NCBI RefSeq assembly: GCF_009914755.1
Contig: NC_060938.1
Length of the DNA: 64,000 nt
Origin: the human T2T-CHM13v2.0 reference genome, Homo sapiens
Direction: 5' to 3' (one strand)
The translations under genes were made by a program, and so were the position numbers. Every line of letters starts with the position of its first letter. The stretch's first letter is position 1. Below, piece by piece: positions 48,380 through 60,585 of the stretch. The notes under the pieces were generated by a model that was not told the origin of the DNA, ran no database searches, and saw only the letters and a program-made list of their open reading frames with translations.

Positions 48380-51300
48380 GGGTGTATGGCTGGCAAGATG
48401 GCCTAATAGGAACAGCTCTGGTCTGCAGCTCCCAGTGAGATCAACACAGAAGGTGGGTGATTTCTGCATTTCCAACTGAGGTACCTGGCTCATCTCACTG
48501 GGACTGGTTAGACAGTGGGTGCAGCCCATGGAGAGAGAGCAGAATCAGGGTGGGGCCTTGCCTCACCCAGGAAGTGCAAGGGGTCAGGGAACTCCCTCCC
48601 CTAGCCAAGGGAAGCCATGAGGGACTGTGCCATGAGGAATGGTGCATTCTGGCCCAGAAACTACACTTTTCCCATGGTCTTTGCAACCCGCAGACCAGGA
48701 GATTCCCTCGGGTACCTACAGCACCAGGGCCATGGGTTTCAAGCACAAAACTGGACAGCCATTTGGGCAGACACCGAGCTAGCTGCAGGAGTTTTTTTCA
48801 TACCGCAGTGGCACATGGGAAACCAGCCAGACAGAACCATTCACTGCCCTGGAAAGGGGGATGAGGCCAGGGAGCCAAGTGGCCTAGCTCAGCAGATCTG
48901 ACCCCCAAGGAGCCCAGCAAGCTAAGATTTCCTGGCTTGAAATTCTCATTGCGAGCACAGCAGTCTGAAGTCGACCTGGGACGCTTCAGGTTGGTGGGGG
49001 GAGGGGCATCCGCCATTACTGAGGCTTGAGTATGTGGTTTCCCCCTCACAGTGTAAACAAAGCCGAGCCTCGGGGAAGTTCAAAATGGGCAGAGCCCACT
49101 GCAGCTTAGCAAAGCCACTGTAGATGGACTGCCTCTCTAGATTCCTCCTCTCTGGGCATGGCATCTCTGAAAGAAAGACAGCAGCCCCAGTCAGGGGCTT
49201 ATAGATAAAACTCCCAGTTCCCTGCAACAGAGCACCTGGGAGAAGGGGTGGCTGTGGGAGCAGCTTCAGCAGACTTAAATGTTCCTGCCTTCTGGCTCTA
49301 AAGAGAGCAGTAGATCTCCCAGCACAGTGCTCAAGCTCTGCTAAGGGACAGACTGCCTGCTCAAGTGGGTCCCTGACCCCTGTGTCTCCTGAATGGGAGA
49401 CACCTCCAGCAGGGGTCAACAGACACCTCATACAGGAAAGCTCCAGCTGGCATCTGGTGGGTGCCCCTCTGGGACGAAGCTTCCAGAGGAAGGAACAGGC
49501 AGCAATCTTTGCTGCTCTGCAGCCTCCACTGGTGATACCCAGGCAAACAGGGTCTGGAGTGGACCTCCAGAAAATTCCAGCAGACTTGCAGCAGAGGGGC
49601 CTGTTAGAAGGGAAGCTAACAAACAGAAAAGTATAGCATCAACATCAACAAAAAGGACGTCCACACAAAAACTCCATCCGATGGTCACCAACATCAAAGA
49701 CCAAAGGTAGATGAATCCACGAAGATGAGGAAAAACCAGCACAAAATGGCTGAAAATTCCAAAAACCAGAATGCCTCTTCTCCTCCAAAGGATCACAACT
49801 CTTGGCCAGCAAAGGAACAAAACTGGACAGACAATGAGTTTGACAAATTGACAGAAGTAGGCTTCAGAAGGTGGGTGATAACAAAATCCTCTGAGCTAAA
49901 GAAGCATGTTCTAACCCAATGCAAGGAAGCTAAGAACCGTGAAAAAAGGTTAGACGAATTGTTAACTAGAATAACCAGTTTACAGAAGAACATAAATGAC
50001 CTGATGGAGCTGAAAAACACAGCAAGAGAACTTCGTGAAGCATACACAAGTATCAATAGCCAAACTGATCAAGTGGAAGAAAGGATATCAGAGATTGAAG
50101 ATCAACTGAATGAAATAAAGTGTGAAGACAAGATTAGAGAAAAAAAAAAAGAATGAAAAGGAATGAACAAAGCCTCTAAGAAATATGGGACTATGTGAAA
50201 ACATCAAACCTACATTTGATTGGTGTACCTGAAAGTGACAGGGAGAATGGAACCAAGTTGGAAAACACTCTTCAGGGTATTATCCAGGAGATCTTCCTCA
50301 ACCTAGCAAGGCAGGCCAACATTCAAATTCAGGAACCACAGAGAACACCACAAAGATAATTCTTGAGAAGAGCAACCCCAAGACACATAATTGTCAGGTT
50401 CATCAAGGTTGAAATGAAGGAGAAAATGTTAAGGGCAGCCAGAGAGAAAAGTCGGGTTACCCAGAAAGGGAAGCCCATCAGACTAGCAGTGGATCTCTCA
50501 GCAGAAACCCCACAAGCCAGAAGAGAGTGGGGACCAATATGCAACATTCTCAAAGAAAAGAATTTTCAACCCAGAATTTCATATCCAGCCAAACTAAGCT
50601 TCATAAGTGAAGAAGAAATAAAATACTTTACAGACAAGCAAATGCTGAGACATTTTGTCACCACCAGGCCTGCCTGACAACAGCTCCTGAAGGAAGCACT
50701 AAATGTGGAAAGGAAAAACCAGTACCAGCCACTGCAAAAACATACCAAATTGTAAAGACCATCGACACTATGAAGAAACTGCATCAACTAATGGGCAAAA
50801 TAACCAGCTAACATCATAATGACAGGATCAAATTCACATATAACAATATTAACCTTAAATGTAAATGGGCTAAATGCCCCAATTAAAAGACACAGACTGG
50901 CAAATTGGATAAAGAGTCGAAACCCATCAGTGTGCTGTATTCAGGAGACTCATCTCACATGCAAAGACACACATAAGCTTAAAATAAAGGGATGTAGGAA
51001 TATTTACCAAGCAAATGGAAAGCAAAACAAGCAAGGGTTGCAATCCTAGTCTCTGATAAAACAGACTTTAAACCAACAAAGATCAAAAGAGACAAAGAAG
51101 GCCATTACATAATGGTAAATGGATCAATGCAACAAGAAGAGCTGACTATCCTAAATATATATGCACCCAATACAAGAGCACCCAGATTCATAAAACAAGT
51201 TCTTAGAGACCTACAAAGAGACTTAGACTCCCACACAATAATTGTGGGAGACTTTAACACCCCACTGTCAATATCAAACAGATCAATGACACAGAAAATT

Positions 51301-59000: not shown

Positions 59001-60585
59001 TTCAATGTCATCCCCATCAAGCTAACATTGATTTTCTTCACAGAATTGGAAAAAACTACTTTAAAGTTCATATGGAACCAAAAAAGGGCCCACATTGCCA
59101 AGTGAATCCTACAGAAAAAGAACAAAGCTGGAGGCATCATGCTACCTGACTTCAAACTATACTACAAGGCTACAGTAACCAAGACAGCATGGTACTGGTA
59201 CCAAAACAGATTTATAGACCAATGGAACAGAACAGAGGCCTCAGAAATAACACCGCACATCTACAACCATCTGATTTTGACAAACCTGACAAAAACAAGA
59301 AATGGGGACAGGATTCCCTATTTAATAAATGGTGCTGGGAAAACTGGCTAGCCACATGTAGAAAGCTGAGACTGTATCCCTTCCTTACACCTTATACAAA
59401 AATTAATTCAAGATGGATTAAAGACTGAAATGTTAGTCCTAAAACCATAAAAACCCTAGAAGAAATCCTAGGCAATACCATTCAGGACATAGGCATGGGC
59501 AAGGACTTCATGCCTAAAACACCAAAAGCAATGGCAACAAAAGCCAAAATTGACAAATGGGATCTAATTAAACTAAAGAGCTTCTGCACGACAAAAGAAA
59601 CTACCATCACAGTGCACAGGCAACCTACAGAATGGGAGAAAATTTTTGCAATCTACCCATCTGACAAAGGGCTAATATCCAGAATCTACAAAGAATTCAA
59701 ACAAATTTACAAGAAAAAAACCAAACAATCCCATCAAAAAGTGGGCAAAGGATATGAACAGACACTTCTCAAAAGAAGACATCTATGCAGCCAGTAGACA
59801 CATGAAAAAATGCTCATCGTCACTGGTGATCAGAGAAATACAAATCAGAACCACAATGAGATGCCATCTCATGCCAGTTAGAATGGCAATCATTAAAAAG
59901 TCAGGAAACAACAGATGCTGGAGAGGATGTGGAGTAACAGGAACCCTTTTACACTCTTGGTGGGAGTGTAAATTAGTTCAACCACTGTGGAAGACAGTGT
60001 GGCGATTCCTCAAGGATCTAGAACTAGAATTACCATTTGACCCAGCAATCCCATTACTGGGTATATACCCAAAGGATTATAAATCATGCTGCTACAAAGT
60101 CATATGCACACATATGTTTATTGCAGCAATATTCCCAATAGCAAAGACTTGGAACCAACCCAAATGTCCATCAATGATAGACTGGATTAAGAAAATGTGG
60201 CACATATACACCATGGAATACTATGCAGCCATAAAAAAGGATGGGTTCATGTTCTTTGCAGGGACATGGATGGAGTTGGAAATCATCATTCTCTTCAAAT
60301 TATCACAAGGACAGAAAATCAAACACTGCATGTTCTCACTCATAGATGGGAATTGAACAATGAGATCACTTGGACACAGGGCAGGGAACATCATACACCG
60401 GGGCCTGTCAGGGGGATGGGGGCCTGGGGGAGGGATAGCATTAGGAGAAATATCTAATTTAAATGATGAGTTGATGGATGCAGCAAATGAACATGGGGCA
60501 TGTATACCTATGTATCAAACCTGCATGTTGTGCATATGTACCCTAGAACTTTAAGTATAATATAAAAAATAAAAAATAAAAAAAA
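56096..60585 (+). mobile_element. 5'-truncated L1PA5/6-like element (starts in ORF1)
   Basis: ORF1 3' part, fragmented ORF2 (endonuclease, FADD, C-terminal 200-aa ORF 59754-60356), 3' UTR and A tail. Confidence 0.88.

What the first reader, a model, noticed from the sequence alone, without database searches (positions are those of the whole stretch)
50390..59360. Two adjacent L1s of different subfamilies share private disabling mutations: probable gene conversion
Seen: the L1 at 48380-55432 and the L1 at 56096-60585 have different 3' UTR types and differ at diagnostic blocks (GACACAGCTAAAGC vs GACACATTTAAAGC). Yet they share many non-consensus changes: 1-bp deletion GCAATCAATTA (51511 / 57215); 1-bp deletion CATCTGATTTTGAC (54083 / 59268), giving the same frameshifted peptide [16 protein letters not shown] in both ORF-track entries while the L1 at about 40055 keeps GATCTTTGAC; an expanded A run of more than 20 nt followed by GCCCAGGACCATA (52216 / 57922); ACATAAGCTTAAAA (50971 / 56675); GAGGCTAGCATCATCCTGATAACA (52360 / 58067); CCCCACTGTCTCAG and CTTAAGTTGAT. 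Inference: shared frameshifts are unlikely to be inherited from active source elements, so patchy non-allelic conversion or unequal exchange between direct repeats about 5.5 kb apart is likely. The pair is also a substrate for deletion/duplication variants in RTN1.
Basis: partly seen in the sequence, partly recalled or inferred. Interest (0 to 1): 0.72.

Follow-up and report, generated by a model that had tools for sequence, protein, structure and literature searches.

The report
Neighbouring dead L1s swap short patches
Two long-dead jumping-gene (L1) copies of different ages lying side by side in an intron of human RTN1 share short patches of very rare mutations, likely copied back and forth by DNA repair; the process is known and is likely harmless here.

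Summary
L1-A (48380-55432, full length, older group) and L1-B (56096-60585, 5'-truncated, younger group) are about 90% alike. Six of the shared variant motifs occur at only 3-15 sites genome-wide (the two undeleted forms counted occur 5,254 and 6,710 times). The pair is always two of those sites, and no outside copy carries two of the motifs, which rules out a shared source. Against 35 dispersed copies, each element keeps its own group's type at most diagnostic sites (53 and 55 of 64). They share 14 rare alleles (3.1/kb against 0.45/kb for cross-group pairs) and group with each other only in the middle segment of per-segment trees. Five clear patches of about 40-125 nt point in both directions; roughly 13-18% of the expected divergence is erased. 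The last 1.2 kb shows almost no exchange, which is unexplained. Corrections: the long A run alone is not private, and the shared frameshifts have no functional weight because both copies are full of stops. Three other neighbouring L1 pairs met by chance show similar sharing. Known process, new locus; ape orthologues were not available for dating.

The parts
48380..55432 (+). L1-A: full-length L1 of the older group (likely L1PA8-like; the name is recalled, not tested against Dfam). ORF1 and ORF2 are broken by stops and frameshifts.
   Evidence: (53 older-type, 8 younger-type of 64 sites)
56096..60585 (+). L1-B: L1 of the younger group (likely L1PA7-like, recalled), 5'-truncated inside ORF1; no target-site duplication found
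   Evidence: (55 younger-type, 8 older-type of 64 sites)
53066..53549 (-). Younger antisense L1 3' fragment inserted in L1-A, with a 19-nt target-site duplication (53047, 53550); it splits the homology
55442..56095 (.). Single-copy spacer between the two L1s; not duplicated in the window
50956..50994 (+). Patch 1 in L1-A, partner 56660-56698; likely A to B (B has the older-type allele at 56668); 39 nt identical
51511..51521 (+). Shared 1-nt deletion, partner 57215-57225; very short patch, direction unknown
52170..52249 (+). Patch 3 in L1-A, partner 57876-57956, with the A run; likely A to B (four older-type alleles in B); 3 differences in 81 columns
52338..52393 (+). Patch 4 in L1-A, partner 58045-58100; likely A to B; 56 nt identical
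52888..52993 (+). Patch 5 in L1-A, partner 58595-58700; likely B to A (three younger-type alleles in a row in A); 3 differences in 106 columns
54055..54179 (+). Patch 6 in L1-A, partner 59240-59364, with the frameshifting deletion; likely B to A; 4 differences in 125 columns
59365..60585 (+). 3' 1.2 kb of L1-B (partner about 54180-55432): almost no exchange signal
   Evidence: (3 of 31 events, against 36 of 64 upstream)
48069..48379 (+). Alu directly upstream of L1-A; one 14-nt direct repeat (48053, 55428) encloses the Alu and L1-A together

Best explanation
Two L1 copies of different sequence groups lie about 5.1-5.7 kb apart in the same orientation and share short patches of rare mutations, likely because breaks in one copy were repeatedly repaired from the misaligned neighbour (non-allelic gene conversion without crossover). 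Shown: the separate group identity of the two copies, the excess of shared rare alleles, the patchy layout, and foreign-type alleles in both copies. Inferred: separate insertions; strand invasion and short repair synthesis on the same chromatid, the sister or a slipped homologue; several separate events of about 40-125 nt visible length in both directions. The patches are likely old: 7 substitutions or gaps over the two longer clean patches at 57876 and 59240 (206 columns) against 10-13% outside, though two short patches are fully identical.
For: Six motifs are found at 3-15 genomic sites, always including this pair and never twice in another element. 14 shared rare non-CpG alleles in 4,465 columns = 3.1/kb, against mean 0.45 and maximum 1.6 in 192 older-by-younger pairs; Poisson P 3e-8. 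A-B distance after removing each copy's own load is -0.017, against 0.006 +/- 0.007, lower than all 192 control pairs. Trees: B sits in the younger clade without A in the 5' and 3' segments (support 0.999, 0.993), but A and B are sisters in the middle segment (0.877). Exchange-type events cluster along the sequence (32 runs against 47 expected, P 0.0014). Foreign-type alleles occur in both copies, 12 in A and 13 in B of 85 relaxed sites. Published tract length (mean 250 bp, CI 63-1000) and raised conversion below 10 kb fit.
Against: With the strictest filter (no panel carrier) there are only 6 shared alleles, 1.34/kb against a control maximum of 1.21. Two within-lineage pairs among 557 panel pairs exceed the A-B rate (4.7/kb), and one dispersed copy (L052) shares 2.0/kb with A and 2.7/kb with B. 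Co-location of shared alleles with exchanged diagnostic sites is not significant (7 of 11, P 0.07), nor is clustering of direction (P 0.12). A's 12 foreign alleles lie within the range of older copies (0-13). The longest identical run (87 nt) is matched by 8% of control pairs. The GC bias reported for non-allelic conversion is not seen (14 sites went to A/T, 8 to G/C). About 2 of the 14 shared alleles are expected by chance. No orthologues or reads were available.
Confidence: 0.88

Rival explanations
1. Rounds of unequal crossing-over (duplication of the A-B unit, later deletion) shuffled segments between the copies without true conversion.
For: Direct repeats about 5.5 kb apart; L1-L1 deletions are common structural variants (219 deletions, mostly L1PA pairs; PMC12350158 passages). 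The present data cannot tell a double crossover from a conversion tract.
Against: Patches are tens to about 125 nt, alternate with retained sites and run both ways; each would need two crossovers close together. The spacer is single and both elements keep their ends.
Confidence: 0.05
2. B was made as a chimera at insertion (template switch onto A's RNA or DNA), or a defective element sharing these mutations was the source of both.
For: B has no target-site duplication, and one shared rare allele lies 7 nt from its 5' end.
Against: Lineage alleles that B shares with L052 but not with A start at 56130 and run to 60515. Transfers into A cannot come from the making of B. No dispersed copy carries two of the six motifs.
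Confidence: 0.03
3. Independent recurrent mutation (homoplasy, a shared local mutation bias) or an unsampled shared sub-lineage.
For: Each motif has 1-13 independent carriers elsewhere; A-run growth is common in the older group; strict sharing is only just above the control maximum.
Against: The two deletions have genome-wide frequencies of about 0.3% and 0.1%, and six rare motifs coincide in one pair. The copies belong to different groups at 64 sites.
Confidence: 0.02
4. Assembly or polishing chimera in T2T-CHM13 mixed reads of the two copies.
For: Not tested with reads; no second assembly was available.
Against: The copies differ by about 10%, with many private differences per kb. The patches themselves contain private differences and the A runs differ by one base, which fits old events better than a copying error.
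Confidence: 0.02

Closest known systems
Non-allelic gene conversion between neighbouring Alu elements (Aleshin and Zhi 2010; seen only as cited in the review PMC6598467, passages; the paper itself was not held)
   Same: Interspersed retroelement copies less than 10 kb apart, mosaic diagnostic positions, shared mutations.
   Different: Here the elements are 4.5-kb L1 fossils of different groups, about 10% diverged, with several patches resolved one by one in both directions.
Non-allelic gene conversion between human duplicates (Harpak et al., bioRxiv 10.1101/135152, passages; Mansai et al., PMC3924818, passages)
   Same: Short tracts (mean 250 bp, CI 63-1000); rate falls with distance and divergence; conversion mainly above 80% identity.
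   Different: The paralogues are separately inserted transposons, not a segmental duplication; visible patches are at the short end; the reported GC bias is not seen (low power).
Conversion among LTR elements and LINE-associated conversion (Trombetta et al. 2016, cited in PMC6598467; LINE at an X-Y conversion boundary, PMC3055243 passages; Tremblay et al. 2000, seen only as a title and a citing sentence)
   Same: Retroelement copies act as donors for repair of one another.
   Different: Those cases are sex-chromosome, dispersed or experimental; this is an autosomal adjacent direct pair.
L1-L1 recombination-mediated deletion (PMC12350158 passages)
   Same: Same substrate: two same-strand L1PA copies a few kb apart.
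   Different: No deletion or duplication is seen in this haplotype; only non-crossover outcomes are recorded.

Membership tests
Non-allelic gene conversion between TE copies | Copies of separate origin (not a tandem duplication) | tested here: met
   53/8 and 55/8 split at 64 diagnostic sites; separate clades at both ends
Non-allelic gene conversion between TE copies | Excess of shared rare derived alleles | tested here: met
   3.1/kb against 0.45/kb (n=192 pairs); six motifs at 3-15 genomic sites
Non-allelic gene conversion between TE copies | Mosaic, tract-like layout and segment-wise tree conflict | tested here: met
   runs test P 0.0014; sisters only in the middle segment
Non-allelic gene conversion between TE copies | Shared alleles lie beside exchanged diagnostic sites | tested here: inconclusive
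   7 of 11 within 40 nt, P 0.07
Non-allelic gene conversion between TE copies | Non-reciprocal transfer shown against orthologous or allelic unconverted states | not testable with these tools
   no relatives are held for this genome
Non-allelic gene conversion between TE copies | GC-biased resolution (typical, not required) | tested here: not met
   14 to A/T, 8 to G/C, 3 neutral among 25 exchanged sites; low power, some sites are homoplasy
Tandem (segmental) duplication | Uniform identity, same subfamily, duplicated flanks | tested here: not met
   different groups; spacer and flanks single
L1PA8 (A) and L1PA7 (B) subfamilies | Best match to the Dfam/Repbase 3' end consensus | not testable with these tools
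   names recalled from 3' end appearance; only older/younger grouping was tested; ages of about 40 and 30 Myr from 10.1101/2021.04.06.438727 passages

The most novel reading that the evidence does not exclude
Neighbouring L1 fossils routinely trade short patches for tens of millions of years, even across subfamilies and at about 10% divergence, at a level (10-20% of divergence erased) that biases L1 subfamily calls and insertion dating. The exchange is polar within the element and stops first in the more diverged 3' end. Rare L1 variants shared by neighbours could then be used to map such conversion, and inversion-prone pairs, from one genome.
Probability: 0.3. Interest if true: 0.55.

Novelty: new member of a known kind. 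Interest (0 to 1): 0.3.

Why it matters
For RTN1 it likely matters little: the pair is intronic, no annotated exon lies in it, and the RefSeq enhancers (48391-49406) sit in L1-A's 5' UTR, which L1-B lacks and so cannot overwrite. Its value is as a clean worked example that dead L1s are not independent clocks: the two copies are 13-18% closer than their loads predict. It also shows that the pair has engaged in ectopic pairing many times, which makes it a plausible substrate for a 5.1-5.7 kb intronic deletion. If the sharing seen in three further neighbouring pairs holds in a blind survey, L1 conversion becomes measurable genome-wide.

Tried and rejected
Simple tandem duplication: rejected. Shared source lineage: rejected, since no outside element carries two motifs; L052 is a lineage relative of B and shares only 2 of the 21 A-B alleles that have at most 3 panel carriers. 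The long A run as private evidence: rejected on its own. Exchange of A or B with the old L1 at about 37000-39900: A shares 4.9/kb against up to 4.0/kb in older dispersed copies, scattered, so most likely ancestral states. Exchange with the antisense insert: none (1 and 0 shared alleles). Exchange of A with the L1 3' piece at 39951-41372: 6 shared alleles, the top of 39 comparisons (next 4), suggestive only. Co-location, direction clustering and GC bias tests were not significant or negative. still held two duplicate loci (L020, L021), dropped from all later counts; 12 of 204 cross-group pairs were left out for overlaps under 2 kb. Seven literature searches listed no paper on this locus or a survey of conversion between neighbouring L1s. 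In one search no listed paper held RTN1. Subscription papers are mostly not held and no supplements were read, so structural-variant tables may list this pair.

Full report
Anatomy. L1-A runs from 48380 to 55432 and is full length. It carries a younger antisense L1 3' fragment (53066-53549, 19-nt target-site duplication), a 12-nt and a 66-nt internal duplication. L1-B runs from 56096 to 60585, starts inside ORF1 and shows no target-site duplication. They align over about 4.45 kb at about 90% identity. Both are dead: the longest sense stop-free frame is 226 aa. By the annotation supplied with the task, the pair lies in an RTN1 intron on the opposite strand.

Observation. Exact counts over the whole genome give 15, 6, 4, 6, 3 and 3 sites for six shared motifs. 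The undeleted forms of the two deletions occur 5,254 and 6,710 times. The pair is two of the sites every time. The 25 other carriers never lie in one element, so they are independent recurrences or local transfers, not a lineage. For L1-A 52100-52700, L1-B was also the best other match among the 40 scored of 7,649 candidates (93% against at most 91%).

Panel. I used 35 dispersed copies taken from top hits to parts of A or B. This selection favours sharing with A or B, so comparisons of A or B with panel copies are conservative. Trees split the panel into 17 older, 12 younger and 6 intermediate copies. At 64 strict diagnostic sites A is 53 older/8 younger and B is 55 younger/8 older. Younger copies carry 0-6 foreign alleles; older copies carry 0-4, except one with 9. 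So the two were separate insertions (inferred), not a duplication. The names L1PA8-like (A) and L1PA7-like (B) are recalled, not tested.

Exchange. A and B share 14 rare non-CpG alleles in 4,465 columns (3.1/kb); 192 older-by-younger pairs give a mean of 0.45 and a maximum of 1.6. After subtracting each copy's own load, the A-B distance is lower than in all 192 controls, about 18% less than expected. By region it is 0.086 against about 0.099 expected in the 5' 3.2 kb, and 0.129 against about 0.131 in the 3' 1.2 kb (expectations derived from that call's means). A and B are sisters only in the middle segment of the trees. Exchange-type events cluster (P 0.0014). Five patches are clear, in B coordinates: 56660-56698, 57876-57956 and 58045-58100 carry older-type alleles in B (likely A to B); 58595-58700 and 59240-59364 carry younger-type alleles in A (likely B to A). 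They differ at 0/39, 3/81, 0/56, 3/106 and 4/125 columns. These limits were drawn after looking, so the rates are biased low.

Results against. Strict sharing (no panel carrier) is 6 sites, only just above the control maximum. Two within-lineage panel pairs exceed the A-B rate. Co-location (P 0.07) and direction clustering (P 0.12) are not significant. The longest identical run is unremarkable. No GC bias is seen. The long A run is common in the older group; what marks transfer is that B has it together with older-type neighbours and a variant found at three genomic sites.

Mechanism. Most likely a break in one copy was repaired by strand invasion into the neighbour, misaligned by one repeat unit, with short synthesis and no crossover, repeated in both directions (inferred from the pattern and from established repair pathways). 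Unequal crossovers, an insertion-time chimera, homoplasy and an assembly error each fit worse (see rivals). Unexplained: only 3 of 31 typed events in the last 1.2 kb are exchange-type, against 36 of 64 upstream (best-split permutation 0 of 400). The 3' part is somewhat more diverged between groups (0.110 against 0.098), so it may have escaped conversion first; this is a guess.

Generality. Three other neighbouring pairs turned up in the searches, not chosen blind. Chr1, 20.5 kb apart and inverted: they share the same deletion inside about 1,050 columns with 2 mismatches, plus a second stretch of about 450 columns with 2, flanked by roughly 5-9% divergence. Chr2, 21 kb apart: 5 shared rare alleles against means of 0.7-0.8 and maxima of 3-4 in 27 comparisons each. 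Chr10, 40 kb apart: 6 against a mean of 0.6 in 30 comparisons each, and each is the other's closest copy. Same-lineage origin or a segmental duplication was not excluded for the last two.

Known context. A review (PMC6598467; abstract and passages) describes mosaic diagnostic sites and raised conversion below 10 kb for Alus, and conversion among LTRs. Harpak et al. (10.1101/135152; passages) give a mean tract of 250 bp, a GC bias and escape with divergence. Mansai et al. (PMC3924818; passages) give the 80% identity guide. PMC3055243 (passages) cites L1-to-L1 repair by conversion. PMC12350158 (passages) counts 219 L1-flanked deletions. Seven searches listed no paper on this pair, within a library that lacks most subscription papers; supplements were not read.

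Verdict. Real, correctly read, a new instance of a known process, with no evident effect on RTN1. Interest 0.3.

Noticed in passing
L050/L051 (G000:C1:42102200-42106200 and 42121800-42125800): Inverted young L1 pair 20.5 kb apart with about 1,050 nt at 2 mismatches and about 450 nt at 2, flanked by roughly 5-9% divergence: likely a very recent long conversion, and a candidate inversion breakpoint pair.
   Followed up: partly
L059/L060 (G000:C2:158.16-158.19 Mb) and L052/L061 (G000:C10:73.27-73.31 Mb): Two more neighbouring L1 pairs (21 and 40 kb apart) share 5 and 6 rare alleles in about 1.2 kb, more than with any panel copy; not chosen blind.
   Followed up: partly
window 48053-48066 and 55428-55441: One 14-nt direct repeat encloses both the Alu (48069-48379) and L1-A; each alone has only 7-8 nt A-rich repeats. 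Nested insertion at one site, or an Alu-L1 chimera.
   Followed up: partly
window 53066-53125: The antisense L1 insert has two poly(A)-like tails with about 25 nt of other sequence between them, which looks like a short 3' transduction; the source was not sought.
   Followed up: no
   Followed up: partly
window 52989-53012 and about 54257-54322: Private tandem duplications of 12 and 66 nt in L1-A; the second lies close to where exchange signals end.
   Followed up: no
window 56092-56100: L1-B has no target-site duplication, and the sequences on its two sides do not continue each other by eye, suggesting a deletion at or after insertion.
   Followed up: partly
L029 (G000:C8:79986663-79990245): An older-group copy with a block of younger-type alleles (9 of 64 strict sites): intermediate lineage or itself a mosaic.
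   Followed up: no
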